In this document: piece by piece, positions 3,970 through 39,500 of the stretch
Position numbering within the stretch: the first letter of the stretch is position 1
Layout of the letters: each line of letters opens with the position of its first letter
NCBI RefSeq assembly: GCF_006345805.1
Contig: NC_043015.1
Location: 16,740,001-16,804,000 of the forward strand
Direction: 5' to 3'
DNA: 64,000 nucleotides
DNA from: Octopus sinensis
Taxonomy: Eukaryota
The notes under the pieces: generated by a model
Told to the model about the DNA's origin: nothing
Databases searched by the model: none
What the model saw: only the letters and a program-made list of their open reading frames with translations
Position numbers and translations under genes: made by a program

Positions 3970-4880
3970 CCGTTGATGACATAACTCAAAGATCTCACAA
4001 TCTGCGAGACATTATTGTCATAACGAGTAACGCAGATTCAACAAACCAACTCCTGGCATCTGTGAAATTGATCCACAATTCGTCGGAATGCTGTAATGAG
4101 TGGATGTACCTTGCATCACGCAATACAGTATCCGATGGGAAAATGTGGAGGTGTACTGTTGGCAGGCAATTTCGTAGCATTAGGCAAGACTCGTTTTTCT
4201 CGGGTTCACACCTGCCATTGACTCGTCTCCTTCAGTCGATGTATTACTGGGCAAAAATTGAATGTAAACAGAGTGTTGTGATGAGTGAAGTTGGAATTGG
4301 ATCAGAGGCGATTGTCAACTGGTACAATTACTTCAGCGATGTTTGTGCTATGTGGTGTTTTGACCACCCTGTGCAACTTGGAGAAGATGTTGTAGAGATC
4401 GACGAATCCATGTTCATGCACAGGAAACATCATCGTGGTAGTTATCAAGAAGGTCATTGGGTTTTTGGAATGGTTGAACGGGAAAGTCTGGGATGTGTCT
4501 TAGTTCCTGTGGAAAACAGAAGTCAGCAACATTGCTGCCTATTATTACCCGCCATGTTTTGCCAGGAACTAAGATTATCACAGATTCCCGGAGAGAATAT
4601 AATAGCCTACCCAACCATTTGACTGTGAACTACAGTGTCACAGTATCCCAACAATGCCTAAATCCACACAAACACTGTGGAAGGGATGTGGAGTCACGTG
4701 AAATCAAATTATCGGATGATGCATGGAACGTCCGATAATTTGTTTTCAACATATTTGCATGAATTTTGTTGGCGACGTTACAACAGCAGTAATACTTTTA
4801 TGACCTTCATAAAATGTATTAGAAAGTATGATTTCAAAAATGTGTTTTATGAAGTTCATAAAGTGTGTTCTGTTGTTTAA
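3970..4880 (+). pseudogene. Merlin / ISXO2 (IS1595-like) DDE transposase, frameshifted
   Basis: Three frames give DGKMWRC...SIRQDSFF, VVEIDESMF...WVFGMVER, ATLLPIITRHVLPGTKIITD, and NTVEGMWSHVK...YLHEFCWRR, the ISXO2 D-D-E motif layout. TIRs not identified. Confidence 0.88.
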
Positions 4881-5022
4881 TTTAGCCTCAAATTCATGGG
4901 AATCTGTATGATTTTATTTTTATTATTAATTTCTTTTTTTGCATCTTAGTTATTTGCATTTCTTTCTTTTCTCTATGCGCATTTCAGATCTTGTAACTTG
5001 TACGATTTTCGGAATTTTAAAA

Positions 5023-30582: not shown

Positions 30583-33500
30583 ATTATATATATATACACA
30601 CACACACACAAACACAAAGCAGGTTTCCATACTGTTTTCCTATACAAAATTTACTCACAAGGCATTGGTTGGCAAGGGATTACTGTAAGTACAAGGAAAG
30701 ACCTATTTAATGAAGATAGAGAACTCCAGAACCAAACAAAAGTTTGGAAAATATATTTTTATATCAACTCATTAAAAAATGCAATTCTAGTGACTTGAAG
30801 CTCACATAATAGTTGGTGATCTATCTCCCGAAGTAACTAATATTATACATGGTTCTCTTATTAGGAATGGTAAAGTTAACAAAGAGAAAGAATTACTATA
30901 GATATAAAGCTATTATTAAAAAAACGTACTTGGCTTCTCGTTTTGGTGCTCCAAATCTGTTTTTCTTTGTTGCAGTCTGCCCATCATATAAGCCAATAAG
31001 AGCCTGGCTTTCTTTTGTCATGGAAAGTAAACCAAATTCCTGTAAAATATTAATAATTATTTAAAAATTCCTGAATATTTTCATTTCTCTCATTATTATT
31101 GTCATAAAAAAAAAATAGAAAGAAAAGAAATATAGATTTATTTCCAAGTTTTTCCCATTGAGAGTAGTTTCTTCCTCTCTTATCTGACACTAAACAATTT
31201 TTACTGTCAAGTACAACTGCCTTAAAGCAGACTCTGACTCAAGACAAGTTTCCTCAAACCTTATTTTGGCTGTTAACAACAATCACTGACTTTTATTATC
31301 CTAGTTATCAACTAGCTTTAAATATTATTTAGTTTTCTTTGACTTTGCTATACATAATATCCAAATAGTGTAGACTCGCTCTCGTCTTACCACCTAATAA
31401 TCAATATTAACTACAAACTCTCATGCAGATGATAAAATATTGCTTACTTCTCTAAAATCATATTGTTCCTATCCACTGCTAATATTGGTTTCAAATATTG
31501 GCAGAAGGCCAGCAAATTCAGGAGAGGGGGTAAGTTGATTACACTGACCGCCAAAGGGTTAAAATAAAAGATGCCCCACATGATGGAGTTCACCACTTCT
31601 ATTGAACTACAAACCTGATAAAACTTTATGGAAGCAAATTTATTTTTCTTCAGAATTAAGAAATATTTGTTTTAATCTATTGTTGACACAAAATTTTCTC
31701 AATATGCAGCTCAATGGATTATTGTTTTTTTATTTTTCATATATCTAAGATGGTTTTATTTCCTTCAATAAACTCTTTCAGGAAAAGTTCAAAAATCTAA
31801 CCAAATTTTGATAGTGGGTTTTGTCTCTTTCTCTTTTATTGATACCATATAAACAAGGCTGTTATTAGAACACATAAACAGTAGTTTGTCTTAATATAAT
31901 TTTACTTGCTTTTGATTGATTTTTTATTGTGCAATCATTCATTTAGACAGCAACAGTCATATAACCAGTTAAAAAATAAAGCCAGTCCTATAAGATGAAG
32001 TAAAGTTTGAATTTCTGAAACTTTAAAGTGGCCCAAATCTTAAAACTTTATGATTTTTATAATGCAATATTAAAAGAGTCAATAAATAGTAGTATATATA
32101 TATATATATATAAAAAGACAGTAAATAATGGCTTAAAAAATCAATACCTTACCTTAGCTTCTACATCATAGCCAACTTTGGGACCTTGTTCTAAACCTTT
32201 TTTTGTTACCTTAATGACAGAAAATAAATATTTAACATAAAATTTAAAAGCAAATAATTTTATAAATCAAATGAGTTATCAAGTTTTACTCAATCAAGAT
32301 TGACCAGATCACCCAGTCAATTCAAACTAAACCAATTACTAAATTTTATCAATATATTTGTTGAAAAGTAATGATTCAAAGAGTTTTTAACAGTTTTCTT
32401 TTCATTTTGTTAATTCTCCGTTTACTTTTAGGAGAATCATAGTCCGATGGTATTATAGTGTAGATGTCCAATTCTGGTGGTGGTTTTGTTTGTACATAGA
32501 TTTCTGTATATTTGTGTTCTATGTAGCGGTCAATATATTTTTTCCAAATTGTCAGCCACATGAGGAGTTTAATTCTACTTTTCCCCATTCTTTCAGTTGG
32601 GGCATTGATTGTTTTGTTTTGTAGTAGAATAAACGATTTTTTATTGCATTTTCATCTTGAGGGACCACCCTCCATGGGTCTGTGTTACTTGTGGAGAGGC
32701 TTGGTGTTCTTTTCAACATCTTTCGTTTTGATGCTTTATGTTGATGTAAGTTGATGCACTTCCCTCCTTCAACATTATTTGTGGTAAACCACATTTCGTC
32801 TGTATAGATTAAGGGTTTATCTATACAGGTTCCAAAAGTGAAACTGTCCAATGATTGGCATCGCATTCTTCCTGTATTCATTAGTCCATTACGAATCGAT
32901 CGTAGTATGTAGGATTTGCCACTGCTTGATGTTCCCGTAATATGAAGTCCATTTTTTTTTGGGGGGGGGGGGGGTATTTTGTGGCAAACCTCAAATGTCT
33001 CTTGTGCAAATTTTTCTGGGTCAAAGTTATGATGTTTTAGCCATGCTGTGAAAATATTGATGGAGGTATGAACATTATGAAATTTGCAGTTCATTTCGGA
33101 AAATAGTTCTGTTTTTTTGTTGGATTTGCTGCCATATTGGAATGGATACAGTTTCTACATTTAGTTCTGTTGCTGCTGAAGTTATAATGCTTAGCAGGTT
33201 TGGAGTATTGCAGTATATGTCGTTCCATTGTTTATTTATATTGGTGCTGTTTGTATTTTTAGCATAGGCTATTAAATCTCCTAATTCAGTTGAGTTTGTG
33301 GCTGACATGAGTTGTTTTATGAAATCATGTTTTTTACCGCACACTATTATTTTATCGGTGTATGCCCAAGGTACCATGCAGTCTGACTAAACCCAGAACC
33401 ATGTGGTTGGTAAGCAAGCTACTAACCACACAGCCACTTCTGCACCTATGCATAAACATTGATTAACATTTTTACAAACTAAGAAGCTATTAAGAACTTA

Positions 33501-36500
33501 CATCAAGGATTTTCAATGGAGCAGGATAGAGACCTCCAGAGAGTTTCATCACCTTTGATCTTGCTTGTTTAAACACAAAGTTTCTTCCAAATTCATATTG
33601 CAATATTTGATCTGTTATTTCTAATTCAGAAACATGAAACAGAATATGAAAAATGAGAGCAGAAAACAGTGAACATTTATTTTTCAGAGATACAGATTGA
33701 AATTAATTTGAAAATAAATCAAAGTTTAGTTTTTCATTGCCCAAATATTATCTCTTATATAAAATAGACCTGTGTGTATGTGTTTATTTGCATTCTATGC
33801 GAAAATGGCTGCATGAATTGCTTCCATACTTGGAATGCATGAATAATTTGACCTTGGATACATAATAGGATCTTCAGTTTATTTTTTTTATTAAAAATAA
33901 ATAATGTTGCTTTAGATATATGATTCATTTCTTTAAAAAGGTTTCTCAATATCAACATCCGGTATTGATGTAGCAATGGCAAAATTTTCTGTTTTCATTT
34001 GCGAAATCTCTCATTCTCTATTTTAATGCTTTCATTTCAAGTTCACAAATTTCACTTGAACCTGCACACTTCATTAATTTCTATAAAAAGTTTTATTTAT
34101 TTACTTTTTGTGTGCCGTGTTCAGCTCTGTATATTTGTAGTCAGTCACACATAAACATGTATTTTTGTATGTATGTTTGTATACATTTATGTATGCATAC
34201 ATACATAAATACATATGCATACACCTTTTTTGTATGTATGTGTGTGTGTGAGAGAAAGAGAGAGAGAGAGAGAGAAAGAGAGTGATGTCTAAGTGGCACA
34301 CTCTCTTTCTCACACACACACACACATACATACAAAAAGATGTAAAGTAAAGTCTACATTAATTCACATATTTGTTTTCTTGTGATTTACCTTGCATTTA
34401 CTTTGCATTGTTTTGGCCTTACCCACGATCCTTTATGCAATATATTCTACACAATGCTTCATAGTAATTATTATATTTATTTATGTACATACACATGACA
34501 ACACACTCCTTCACTCACTCTCTCTCTTTCATGTCCATTTAATCTGATGTTTGTATGCATGTGTACTTGTGGCATTCCACAATCGCCATTTATTTCAATC
34601 ACTCTTGTGAAGATATTCACATAACTCATTTTTTTCATTTAATCCCCATTTTAATTTTCAAAAAAGTTTCCGAGAACAGAATTCTCACACTCTACGAGGG
34701 GAGTCGGGGTAGGTGTAGATGATCAGTATTCTACAATGAAGCAAAGACAAGTACAGGTAGCCAGAGTCAACGTTGAATTCTGCAACTCTTTTAACTCTAA
34801 TAAGTATGTTTGCAAATATATAAACAGGTTTAAACGCTGCAACACTCTTATGCAGAATGGTAATCAGCAGATAAATAAAAATGACGAAGATGCACAGTAT
34901 GACAGAGGAAGATACATCAGTATCTACGAGGCTTTTTGGCGCATCTTCAATTTTCCCTTTCAAGAGAGGCACCCAGCCATCATTCATCTAAGTGTCCATC
35001 TAGAGAATGGCCACAGGGTTATCTTTACAAAACAAGCAGCCTTGCAACAAACACTCTCCAAAAGAAACTACCCTTACTGCCTTTTTTAAGTTGTGTCAAG
35101 TAGGTGAAGGTGCAAGAAAACTCCTTTACCCACAATTACCCAAGTATTACACCTGGAGAAACAATAAAAGGCACAAGAGGAAATATGGGGCTGAAACACG
35201 TGCAAGAGTTTACAGTGTCCCCTCCAACCCAAGCAGAATGCTACTACTTACAGCTCCTTTTGCCTGAAGTACATGGTCCCAAATCATTCCAAAATTCAAG
35301 GAGGGTAAATGGTCACGTGTGTGAAACTTATAGGGAAGCATGCTATCAACAAGGTTTTTTTAGATAATGAGCAGCATTAGGACCTTGCATTGACTGAAGC
35401 ATCAGTATCAGATTCTCCAAGAAAACTCCATAACTATTTTGCAATTATATTGAACATGTGTCAACTTGGCAGTCCCCTACAGCTTTGGATGAAACAATGT
35501 GAGGACTTAAAGTATGCAGTTCAACAGGCAAACCCAGATATCAATATTCAGTTCTCTGAAACAATTTTTAACCAAACACTGATTGAAATGAGGATCAAGT
35601 TTTGACCATGGGAGGCAAAAATTAGGAGGAGTATCTGGCTCTGGACTACCAAAAACAAACTGTCAAATTAGTGATTTAACTTCAAGAGGCATAATAAGAG
35701 AGAGAAATTATGACATCACATTTGTGAACGAACATGAACCTAAACATCTTTCAGAACAAAATTGTGCATATGATAAAATTATTTCGTCAGTCAGAAAAAA
35801 AGCAGAGAAATTTTCTGTCTTGATGCTCATGGTGGTAGAGGTAAAACATTTGTAACAACATTGCTTCTCTCCAAGGTAAGGCAACAAAAAAGAATTGCAG
35901 CTACTGTAGCATTGTCTGGCATTGCTGCCACCATTCTTACAAGAGGACGAACAGCTCATTCTGCTTTTAATTACCACTAAACCTAATCACAAATAACAAT
36001 CCAATTTGTGACATAAGCAAAGATTCAGGTTCAGCAGAAGTGTTGTGCCAATGCCACCTTATCATTTGGGATGAATGCACCATGTCACATAGAGGTGCAA
36101 TGGAAGCCCTTGGTAACACCTTACAAGACATTGGAGGCAACAATAAATTTATGGGAAGATTTACATTACTTTTATCAGGAGAATTCAGACAGACATTACC
36201 AGTCATTCTGAGACAAACAAGATCTGATGAAATAAAAGCATGCATTAAGTCTTCACACCTCTGGAATAAAGTTCTGAAATTCTCCTTCAATACTAACATG
36301 CCAGCTTCATTACATGGGGACCAATGTGCAAAACAGTTTTCAACCTGCCTCCTCCAATTAGGAAATGAGAAAGTACCACTTAATGGGAATGGTGATATCA
36401 GTTTGGCTCATATTGCTATCATGATGAATTCCCCAGCTCAATTGAAGAACAAGGTATTACCAGACTTAAGTGATGATTATAATTCACATAAATGGTTGTG

Positions 36501-39500
36501 TGAAAGGGCAATTCTTAATCTAAAAAATGAGACAATAGCAAGGATTAACCATGAATTAATGAATAAGATTCCAACAGTCATTAAGAAGTACAAATCAGTT
36601 GATTCAGTCTTTGATGAAAATCAAGCTGTCCATTACTCAACAGAGTAAATTCTCTTGAGCCACCTGGAATTCCTCTACATAAACTTTTTTTGAAGGTAGG
36701 AATCCTAATAATGCTTCTAAGAAATTGAGATGCTCCTATATTATGCAATGGTACAAGATTGATTGTGAAGACATCATCACCAAATGTGATAAAAGCTACC
36801 ATCATCACTGGATGTGCCTCTGGGGAAGAGGTTTTCATTCCAAGAATTCTAATCAAACCAACAGACATGCCTTTTGAGTGACACAATTCCTAGTGAGACT
36901 TTGCTTTGCAATGTCTATTAATAAAGCTCAAAGTCAGACTTTGAAATCTACTGGCTTGCATTTTATTGAGCTTTGCTTTTCTCATGGTCAACTTTATGTT
37001 GGTTGCTCCAGGGTTGGTAGTTTGCAAGACTTATTTGTCAATGCTCCAAATCAGAAAACAAAGAATCTTGTTTACCCAGAAGCTCTTACATAATTTCCTT
37101 CAATATGTGATAGAATTTATCTCCCTTCATAAAGTAGTAAATTTTTGTATTTTTGTTTTTCATTATTGAATTCAGAATTGATTTCCCAATTGAAGAATAA
37201 ATTGAATTTAGAATAACAAATTTCTATACAACATATTTTGCTTTTTTCTTCCAATATATAAGGAACAATTCCATTCCCAGGCAACACCGGGTGCCTCTGC
37301 TAGTATTTTATAAATATAGTTTACCAAGAAACAATCAGTTGACCAATCAGAATGTAGGAAACTACATAGATTTAGTCCATTCTTGGCTGTTTAATACTAT
37401 TTGATTTTTTTTTTTTTTGTTGGCCAGTTGTATAAAGTCCACCTAAATTAAAACCGACAAAGTAACCATACAAGAAAAAGAAAAAAGAAAAGCCCATTTA
37501 ATCACAACAGGGAGGTGAGTTTACCAAATTGTAGTAATCCAGATTTACAGATCTGAACTGAATCCAAATCTCTCCTGAATTTTCAAGAGAAATTTCTTGT
37601 TATCTAGTTGAGGTTATTGCTTATATAAATATCTCTTAGAAAACAACAGGTTTGATGTAAGTTAATATAGAATAAACTACTAGGTTATATAAAAAAAATA
37701 CTTCATTGGTTATATTGAATAAAAATACACTTACTTTCAGTGAGATTTTTCTTTCTTGGTGCTCTTTTACCACCATTATTTGCAAGATTTCTGATAATGA
37801 AAATTAAATTAAATTAAATATTTCTGTAGACTAAGAACAAGGACAATATTTATAAGAGAATAGATTATGAGAATAAGCACAGAATATCACCAATACATCA
37901 ATACCTTGATTAATGAAATCAATATGTCCCACATTTATATGTTGTTAACATTTGTACAAGGGTATAACTGACTGAAACCGTTTCATCTTCTATCCTATGG
38001 CCATTCCTAATTACATTTGGACACGCTTTTTCTAAATCTCAATGAGACATACATTTAACTTCTTAAGCATCTTAAATACCTTTATGGCATACTTGATATA
38101 ATTTCTCAAGAATTCTTTTATAGGCTGATGTTTATCATCAGCCACTGTTATCAAATAACTTCTTCAGTTGATTACAGTTTTATTAACAGTGGATTACATC
38201 ATCATCTTTCAACTAATTAAATAAATTTAATGCCTTCTGCTAGATAGTCACTTGGTTGAGTAGAGAATAATGCCTTCACATAACAGTTTTATTTCATATG
38301 TTTCATGATTTTGCTGCACCTGTATGTTAGTTTAGAAGTATTGTAATATTTACTTGACTTTTGCATGGCAACCTTTTCAGATTAAGTCATTATAGTTTTT
38401 AAAGCTGGCAGTGCGGGTCTCAATGATTCTGCAACAACACCTTTCTCCCCTAACTATTCTTTCCATAATTTTTACATTGGTACATAATGATATAGCTTTA
38501 TACTTGTATTATATGATGAGATAATAAGTGTACTGGATTTTTTTTTTTTTTAATTATTTGCATCATGTGATAGTTGCATTGGGTTGCTGATTTGGTATCC
38601 TGATATGTAGATAGAACTCTCAAAGGTAATATCATGCAGCCACATGGGAATCATGAGATGAGAGATGAACGAGCTGGCAGCCATAAAAAGGGGAATTATT
38701 GCTACACACAAGAGAACATTACCAGGAATGGTACAGCGTGGTTCTCGAAAAGTGAGCTGTGTAACTTGCAGTTTCAAGCATTCAACATTTGTCCTTGTGA
38801 TGGAGAGTTACAACACCCCCTTGCGAGACATAGCCTGGTCTGAGTAAAGTATAAATAGTAATGATCTGAGTGAGCTCAGAGTTCAGAGTTGAGCAAAGTT
38901 CACGTTAGTTCACAAGGAATATTGATTGTTGGTTTGTAAAGAGATTTGTTTAGTTTGTTACACTCTTTTTACTGTTGTCTGCTTTTCTTTATTGTACATA
39001 ATAAACTGTGTTAGAACATCTGGCAATAAGGTTTTCAAAGCTCACGTAGGTTATTTAACAATTTGTTCGTGATACAACTTGTTAAATAATAGAAGACATA
39101 TTAGCTTCCATAGCATAGTTGCAATAGCAGCAACAGGCATTGCAGAAGCAACCATTACAGCAACAACTACAATTATTGGAGCTATATTCAAAGAAGTCCA
39201 AAAATGAGGCAAATTCGTTTTTGCCAGACGGCATTTTGAACTCGATTAATGAATTAAGTTATAACCCAGAGGAGGGTATAACTTTTGCATTGCACTACAG
39301 AAGGTATGAGGACATTTTTAAGCAAGATTACAAATCATGGTCAGATGAACAAAAAGTGAGATTGTTATTGTGAAAATTAGCTCCGTTAGAGCATGAACGT
39401 TACTGTAATTTCATATTGTCCAAAAAACCCAATGAAATTTGTTTTAAGGAAACAATAGAATTACTGTCTAACATATTCAATGATAAAACTTCTCTATTTA

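What the first reader, a model, noticed from the sequence alone, without database searches (positions are those of the whole stretch)
32376..33362. Endogenous parvovirus NS1/Rep fossil occupying most of a 1.3-kb HADHA intron
Seen: about 1 kb of the 32210-33501 intron, on the HADHA sense strand, encodes an SF3 helicase. It reads [10 protein letters not shown] (Walker A), [41 protein letters not shown] and AIKNRLFYY. Established: AAV Rep reads FPFNDCVDKMVIWWEE..TAKVVESAKAI..PTPVIVTSNTN..LQDRMFKF, a collinear match. A shifted frame gives YINIKHQNE where motif B' should be, implying a small deletion plus compensating frameshift. Two more frameshifts and a C14 run show decay. No capsid gene or terminal hairpins are seen. 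Inference: germline integration of a parvovirus, probably of an invertebrate (densovirus/hamaparvovirus-like) lineage. I know of few described cephalopod parvoviruses, so this may record an unsampled virus. It is co-transcribed with a housekeeping gene and is a possible piRNA/siRNA source.
Basis: partly seen in the sequence, partly recalled or inferred. Interest (0 to 1): 0.85.

Follow-up and report, generated by a model that had tools for sequence, protein, structure and literature searches.

The report
Octopus fossil parvovirus, capsid gene first
A broken piece of a parvovirus replication gene sits in an intron of a fat-burning gene in what is likely an octopus genome, and sister copies elsewhere in that genome carry the capsid gene ahead of the replication gene, likely marking a cephalopod parvovirus lineage with the reverse of the usual gene order.

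Summary
Confirmed. Bases 33362-32379 (minus strand) of the HADHA intron 33501-32210 encode a 5'- and 3'-truncated, frameshifted parvoviral NS1 (Pfam Parvo_NS1 E=1.3e-10). An independent contig links it to the exon; near-identical alleles (0.6-0.7% different) lie in runs under other organism labels. It is a dead fossil, cut at its 5' end against a SINE head.

It is one of at least 13 NS1 places in the genome. Intact relatives exist in Logan assemblies (49-64% identity). By eye it matches squid and cuttlefish ESTs reported in 2016, so the lineage was flagged before.

New: in 5 of 5 loci keeping both genes, a PLA2-bearing capsid gene lies UPSTREAM of NS1 on the same strand; the four measurable gaps are 28-125 nt. 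No capsid follows NS1 anywhere examined. A low-confidence model of an intact relative best matches parvovirus capsids (Z up to 11.2). A 2024 review puts NS left and VP right in all parvoviruses. The hamaparvovirus and ambisense-densovirus readings fail; a small-RNA role is untested.

The parts
33502..33621 (-). HADHA coding exon upstream of the intron
   Evidence: phmmer to human trifunctional enzyme alpha E=3.6e-4; spliced contig covers 33498-33620
32210..33501 (-). HADHA intron, 1,292 nt, GT..AG
   Evidence: sequence; joint skipping 1,292 nt with CT..AC ends in run X10
32153..32209 (-). HADHA coding exon downstream of the intron
   Evidence: reading frame continues across the joint
33363..33449 (-). 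5' head (about 87 of about 410 nt) of a very abundant host SINE, cut exactly at the viral junction
   Evidence: 86% identical over 85 nt to a full-length copy in L031; over 17,000 contigs per DNA run pile here
32379..33362 (-). Endogenous parvoviral NS1 fragment, residues 186-519 of a 642-aa relative; no nuclease domain, no C-terminal tail
   Evidence: tblastn with P0024 E=1e-86; Pfam Parvo_NS1
33114..33362 (-). NS1 piece 1 (region before the helicase core)
   Evidence: 44-45% identity to P0024/P0001
32567..33118 (-). NS1 piece 2, SF3 helicase core (Walker A 32935-32912, Walker B 32809-32795, motif C)
   Evidence: 64% identity to P0001; AAV2 Rep hits
32952..32974 (-). T9-G14 run (C14-A9 on the coding strand), length-variable between samples
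   Evidence: sequence; 9 and 8 nt shorter in runs X5 and X9
32722..32748 (-). Motif B' region displaced into another frame
   Evidence: ORF 32713-32808; gap in alignment to P0001
32379..32591 (-). NS1 piece 3 (after the helicase), ends inside the coding region
   Evidence: 37% to P0003; best genome match is sister locus C1425, E=2.6e-15

Best explanation
This is a truncated, frameshifted piece of a parvoviral NS1 helicase gene fixed in a HADHA intron, likely a functionless fossil that is spliced out with the intron, left by a likely cephalopod parvovirus whose other genomic copies carry the capsid gene directly upstream of NS1 on the same strand. Shown: NS1 identity, host linkage, decay, presence in other samples, many sister copies, capsid-then-NS1 order at five loci with a 28-125 nt gap where measurable. 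Inferred: viral DNA entered the germ line repeatedly; this copy lost its 5' part in an event that also cut the adjoining SINE (order of events unknown); the virus had a roughly 4-kb monosense genome 5'-VP-NS1-3', each gene with its own promoter (TATA-like boxes lie about 45-65 nt before both starts at several loci), replicating by NS1 nicking and unwinding as other parvoviruses do.
For: NS1: Pfam E=1.3e-10, AAV2 Rep top in PDB. Host linkage: a 1,319-nt contig of run X3, not marked as the source, spans exon, intron, fragment and SINE with 1 other letter and 3 gaps; X5 and X9 carry alleles with 7 differences in 1,019 nt and 6 in 959 nt. Decay: frame changes and truncation, shared by X3 and X5 as far as their contigs show. 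Family: 20 matches at 13 places in G000; 16-row clade 100/100, nearest row L023. Gene order: of the window plus 24 fetched stretches, L023, L026, L031 (and its 97% duplicate L032) and L033 hold both genes strongly and L029 weakly (capsid end E=0.008); all are capsid then NS1, same strand. Capsid end to NS1 start is about 94, 125, 58-97 and 28 nt in L023, L026, L033, L029; no long inverted repeat among those listed for L023, L026, L033. The three loci that keep the NS1 stop (L022, L023, L040) have no capsid match after it, and seven that reach the capsid's first 34 residues have no NS1 match before it. The upstream gene is a capsid: PLA2 domain E=1e-6; 36-38% identity to intact 606-608-aa Logan proteins; top 20 structural matches of a relative's model are all parvovirid capsids, Z 7.3-11.2 against 6.3 for the next. 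Contig lengths 4078, 4065 and 3790 recur in both a capsid cluster and an NS1 cluster, and many ~1.95-kb contigs carry NS1 only, as expected if NS1 is the 3' gene (circumstantial).
Against: No intact genome or Logan contig could be viewed, so gene order rests on decayed copies in one assembly. The window's own copy has no capsid and shows nothing about order. L029 is weak; L031 has a deletion at the junction; L023 lacks much of NS1. The capsid model is poor (mean pLDDT 40.7; first attempt 28.8) and sequence searches of the capsid body against Pfam and PDB found nothing. No terminal hairpins were identified, so linear versus circular is open. Host identity is inferred, not read from a record. 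Neutrality was not tested by any selection statistic.
Confidence: 0.8

Rival explanations
1. The virus had the ordinary NS1-then-capsid order; the sister loci are pieces of head-to-tail concatemers or circularised genomes that happen to span the end-to-end joint.
For: Parvoviruses form concatemers and circular episomes (own knowledge, AAV). The 2024 review states NS left, VP right for all parvoviruses (PMC11357303, passage). Only decayed copies were seen.
Against: The gap is 28-125 nt at four loci, too short for two telomeres plus untranslated ends, with no hairpin found. The internal NS1-to-capsid joint, which this model predicts to be the commonest, was seen in 0 of 3 loci keeping the NS1 stop and 0 of 7 reaching the capsid start. 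L023 and L035 share ~90 nt with a TATA-like box before the capsid start (69%, E=5e-8) and no NS1 match there.
Confidence: 0.08
2. The order is real but the genome is a circle (capsid and NS1 in tandem, origin between NS1 end and capsid start) that integrates opened at the origin; it would then be a parvovirus-related circular virus rather than a linear parvovirus.
For: No terminal hairpins found. All loci are compatible with opening between NS1 stop and capsid start.
Against: No locus shows NS1 end joined to capsid start, which random breaks of a circle should sometimes keep. L023 has a GC-rich, partly palindromic stretch after the NS1 stop (seen by eye). Both proteins match those of linear parvoviruses.
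Confidence: 0.1
3. The intronic copy is kept for a function: a source of antiviral small RNA from the HADHA intron, or a short transcript driven by the SINE head's polymerase III promoter.
For: It lies in a transcribed housekeeping gene and directly behind a SINE head in the same orientation. It is present in several samples. Low-depth contigs of run X10 cover parts of it.
Against: Sense to HADHA, so intron RNA would match, not pair with, viral mRNA (inference). In X10 (RNA is the tool's guess) the spliced contig has depth 246 against 3.3-3.8 for the fragment, which pre-mRNA or DNA explains; depth is a poor measure. Multiple frame changes and a drifting homopolymer run fit neutral decay.
Confidence: 0.07
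4. Contamination or misassembly: a viral contig was stitched into the intron.
For: None found beyond the repeat at one end.
Against: Contigs from X3, X5 and X9 (three studies) bridge one or both boundaries; the fragment is decayed.
Confidence: 0.01

Closest known systems
Cephalopod parvovirus-related sequences of Francois et al. 2016 (PMC5013282): Euprymna scolopes DW277466, DW283133, DW277051, GBHH01003248; Sepia officinalis FO193416
   Same: By eye, the supplement's trimmed NS1 rows match this clade closely (the Euprymna row is nearly letter for letter the helicase core of P0006). The paper says mollusc sequences branch outside all genera.
   Different: Those were short transcribed NS fragments with contamination not excluded; no capsid link, gene order or integration site was given for them in the passages and rows I saw. 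Not aligned by tool.
Octopus bimaculoides endogenous NS1 KOF81493/KOF62817 (same paper)
   Same: Endogenous parvoviral NS1 in an octopus genome; by eye matches G000 loci L037-L039 and L042.
   Different: A second lineage (100/100-type support, separate branch), only about 25-30% identical to this clade.
Parvovirinae (AAV2 Rep, protoparvoviruses)
   Same: Best named NS1 hits are AAV2 Rep (E=2e-13 with the clade profile); monosense; PLA2 at the capsid N-terminus; top capsid Z scores.
   Different: Invertebrate host; gene order reversed; capsid scores tie within about 1 Z with a densovirus and a chapparvovirus capsid; PDB holds few NS1 helicases so the ranking is not a placement.
Swazi bat-associated megaparvovirus lineage (PMC13426907)
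   Same: A PLA2-bearing ORF lies upstream of NS1 (passage).
   Different: There the capsid ORF is still after NS1 and lacks PLA2, in a ~6.4-kb genome; here the whole capsid gene is upstream.
Invertebrate endogenous parvoviral elements in general
   Same: Fragmentary, decayed, next to transposable elements (PMC5013282).
   Different: Nothing in kind for the window's copy.

Membership tests
Parvoviridae | NS1 with SF3 helicase domain (basis of family classification per PMC13426907 introduction) | tested here: met
   Pfam PF01057 above cut-off; AAV2 Rep hits
Parvoviridae | N-terminal HUH endonuclease domain of NS1 | tested here: inconclusive
   Missing from the window copy. An HFH motif is seen by eye in L026, L029, L031 and P0024; Atlas neighbours of P0003 include Rep_N-bearing NS1 clusters; no Pfam nuclease hit
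Parvoviridae | Jelly-roll capsid protein of parvoviral fold | tested here: met
   In relatives only: model of P0196 (pLDDT 40.7) has parvovirid capsids as top 20 matches, best Z 11.2, rmsd 6.7, 243 aligned; absent from the window
Parvoviridae | PLA2 in VP1 N-terminus (most members) | tested here: met
   PF08398 E=1e-6 on L033; precomputed on P0184, P0185
Parvoviridae | NS gene left, VP gene right (stated for all in PMC11357303) | tested here: not met
   Capsid upstream of NS1, same strand, 5 of 5 loci with both genes; hence described as parvovirus-related and filed under no subfamily
Parvoviridae | Terminal palindromic hairpins | tested here: inconclusive
   None recognised at decayed copy ends; ends are often lost on integration
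Parvoviridae | Linear single-stranded 4-6 kb genome in T=1 particles | not testable with these tools
   Only contig lengths of about 4.07-5.2 kb for relatives
Hamaparvovirinae (Hamavirinae) | No PLA2 in the capsid protein | tested here: not met
   PLA2 present; absence in hamaviruses from a passage of PMC9896142
Densovirinae, ambisense genera | NS and VP on opposite strands | tested here: not met
   Same strand at all five loci
Parvovirinae | NS1 clustering with the recognised genera | not tested
   No named reference NS1 set was obtainable; only 2 of 10 tree rows looked up carried names
Papillomavirus E1 / other SF3 helicases | PPV_E1_C score above cut-off | tested here: not met
   15.4 bits against cut-off 26.5
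Endogenous viral element | Joined to host DNA in independent data and decayed | tested here: met
   Contigs of X3, X5, X9; frame changes and truncation

The most novel reading that the evidence does not exclude
Octopuses, squid and cuttlefish host their own parvovirus lineage, possibly a new subfamily and probably still circulating, with a monosense genome in which the capsid gene comes first and NS1 second, the reverse of every described monosense parvovirus; it has left at least 15 fossil copies in this one genome.
Probability: 0.7. Interest if true: 0.75.

Novelty: new variant of a known kind. Interest (0 to 1): 0.6.

Why it matters
The intronic copy alone is an ordinary viral fossil. Its family is not: NS-left, VP-right is treated as universal in parvoviruses and is tied to early NS1 expression from the left promoter and NS1-driven late capsid expression. 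A capsid-first monosense genome would show that this order is not required and makes the link between gene position and timing testable. The copies also tie a lineage flagged in 2016 as possibly contamination to a cephalopod germ line, connect its NS1 to a capsid, and point to intact relatives in public runs, which is relevant to cephalopod aquaculture and to parvovirus taxonomy.

Tried and rejected
Pfam Parvo_coat (PF00740) against G000: no match, and the control did not ring, so uninformative. Homologue search with the decayed L026 capsid ORF: 0 of 1,299 candidates. The search for related loci in viral contigs and metagenome contigs (46 pattern hits, 0 confirmed): no intact contig, so gene order could not be read on one. 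First capsid fold failed (pLDDT 28.8); its Foldseek hits are driven by the PLA2 part and not used. Capsid alignments against PDB sequences: no hit at E<=10. No RNA holder listed on record; no small-RNA data. Parts without cover in X5, X9, X10 prove nothing. Retrocopy of a viral mRNA: rejected as unlikely, because the fragment ends inside the coding region with no poly(A) tail or target-site duplication visible by eye. Dating from the SINE: not possible, since it is unknown whether SINE or virus came first. Naming tree neighbours: 2 of 10 named (a bivalve genome protein and a bird-swab 'parvoviridae sp.'). L044 has two insignificant NS1 hits (E=0.07 opposite strand, E=0.56), not counted. Earlier findings of this scan: nothing. 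Literature: searches found no report of this locus or of a capsid-first monosense parvovirus; the library lacks most subscription papers, ICTV proposals and bioRxiv supplements, so absence from print is not shown.

Full report
1. Observation. The 200-codon ORF 33154-32552 scores Parvo_NS1 at E=1.3e-10, well above cut-off, while papillomavirus E1 stays below its cut-off; the best solved relatives are AAV2 Rep40/68. Against intact Logan proteins the match runs 33362-32379 in three main frame segments, 44-64% identical in the first two, and covers residues 186-519 of a 642-aa relative: the nuclease domain and the tail are missing. The flanking exon matches human trifunctional enzyme alpha and a contig of run X10 skips exactly the 1,292-nt intron. 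Upstream, the fragment abuts the first ~87 nt of a ~410-nt host SINE, cut at the junction.

2. It is a real germline insertion. Of 24 runs listed, 20 hold the stretch or part of it, 9 hold half or more of its words, from 9 studies and four organism labels. I laid 4 of them. One 1,319-nt contig of X3 spans exon, intron, fragment and SINE with 1 substitution and 3 gaps. X5 (7 differences in 1,019 nt) and X9 (6 in 959 nt) share several differences from the window, so the insertion predates the split of those lineages; the only indels listed are at the T9-G14 run and one single-base indel in a low-depth X10 contig. No calibrated age can be given. In X10 the spliced contig has depth 246 and the fragment 3.3-3.8; RNA is only the tool's guess, so this shows no independent transcript and excludes none.

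3. It is one of a family. A search of G000 gave 20 matches of 27 candidates at 13 places; two more NS1-bearing places (L033, L040) and four capsid-led places came. Eight Logan proteins are 49-64% identical. In a 42-row IQ-TREE of the helicase (chosen from 111 rows of a FastTree run; rows under 130 aligned residues were dropped), these form a 16-row clade at 100/100 on a long stem; the window's nearest row is L023 (90/95). The tree has almost no named references, so it does not place the clade among subfamilies. Francois et al. 2016 (PMC5013282; I saw passages, one part of the text, and supplement rows) list NS fragments from Euprymna and Sepia whose printed rows match this clade by eye, and two O. 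bimaculoides proteins that match a second lineage in G000. That, with the genome's size and repeats, is my basis for calling the host likely an octopus.

4. The unexpected part. Six-frame reading of sister loci showed a second gene upstream of NS1. It has a PLA2 domain and is 36-38% identical to intact 606-608-aa Logan proteins. A model of one of these is poor (pLDDT 40.7), yet its top 20 matches among 48,161 chains are all parvovirid capsids, Z 11.2 to 7.3, the next being 6.3; Foldseek on PDB and BFVD agrees, as does the Atlas. Among the window and 24 fetched stretches, five independent loci hold both genes: L023, L026, L031/L032, L033 and, weakly, L029. All five read capsid then NS1 on one strand. 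The capsid's terminal motif is followed by the NS1 start after about 94, 125, 58-97 and 28 nt in L023, L026, L033 and L029, with TATA-like boxes in L023 and L026; L031 has a deletion there. No locus shows the reverse: 0 of 3 that keep the NS1 stop are followed by capsid, 0 of 7 that reach the capsid's first 34 residues are preceded by NS1. L023 and L035 share a TATA-bearing ~90 nt before the capsid start. Logan contig lengths fit: 4078, 4065 and 3790 nt occur in both a capsid and an NS1 cluster, many ~1.95-kb contigs carry NS1, and none of that capsid cluster's 7 members has a longest contig under 3.3 kb; I could not see these contigs.

5. How it works. Shown: a dead NS1 fragment inside an intron. 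Inferred: it is removed with the intron and has no function; the donor virus had a ~4-kb monosense 5'-VP-NS1-3' genome with two promoters and invaded the germ line many times. Rivals are concatemer joints of an ordinary genome (0.08), a circular genome (0.10), a small-RNA role (0.07) and artefact (0.01). Against my reading: order is seen only in decayed copies of one assembly, no termini were found, the capsid model is weak, and the window's copy itself says nothing about order.

6. Comparison with what is known. PMC11357303 (passages) states that all parvoviruses have NS left and VP right. PMC13426907 (passages and introduction) bases family membership on the SF3 domain and describes a lineage with a PLA2 ORF upstream of NS1 but the capsid still downstream. 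PMC9896142 (passages) reports NS left in all 170 viruses and no PLA2 in hamaviruses. PMC11822035 (passages) mentions reversed organisations only for picornaviruses. Other papers were seen as listings only. Ten searches found no capsid-first monosense parvovirus and no report of this locus; coverage of the literature is partial, and supplements other than that of PMC5013282 were not read. It works like a parvovirus and meets the protein criteria; it fails the gene-order description, so I file it under no subfamily.

7. Verdict. Observation confirmed; interpretation partly supported. The locus alone would score about 0.3; the capsid-first family it reveals raises it to 0.6. New variant of a known kind.

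Noticed in passing
L037 (G000:C10:97.29 Mb), L038, L039, L041, L042: A second, distant NS1 lineage in the same genome, by eye the one reported from O. bimaculoides; L037 keeps a 316-codon open frame.
   Followed up: partly
L036:5097-3784 (-): Capsid piece (E=5e-7) followed on the same strand by an NS1 piece that looks like the second lineage (E=1.6e-4): the capsid-first order may extend to that lineage. One weak locus.
   Followed up: partly
Logan clusters of P0002 (34 members) and P0185 (7 members): Intact 606-aa capsid and a 370-aa NS1 lacking the nuclease start, on contigs of matching lengths in many runs: a recent expressed insertion or a persistent virus in some host. Contigs not seen.
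   Followed up: no
L033:4296-4580 (+), L023:7596-7315 (-), also L026, L031, L034: An alternative frame near the major capsid start encodes a similar hydrophobic stretch in five loci, recalling the SAT protein of protoparvoviruses (recalled); no start codon seen, and codon make-up could explain it.
   Followed up: no
L024:6027-6414; L031:6732-7135: Full-length, young copies of the same SINE are inserted inside NS1 (L024) and inside the capsid gene (L031/L032), so those integrations predate recent SINE activity.
   Followed up: partly
L022 ~5300-4900 (-); L040 ~4800-4900 (+); L028 1-855: Zinc-knuckle, LINE ORF1-like sequence directly abuts or lies near three NS1 fragments (by eye); LINE-assisted capture or mere abundance.
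   Followed up: no
L031 and L032 (G000:C18:27.88-27.91 Mb): 9.3-kb, 97%-identical tandem duplicate carrying the element; real duplication or uncollapsed haplotype.
   Followed up: no
window ~34650-36650 (+): Decayed ORFs that read like a Helitron Rep/Pif1-type helicase (by eye; label recalled).
   Followed up: no
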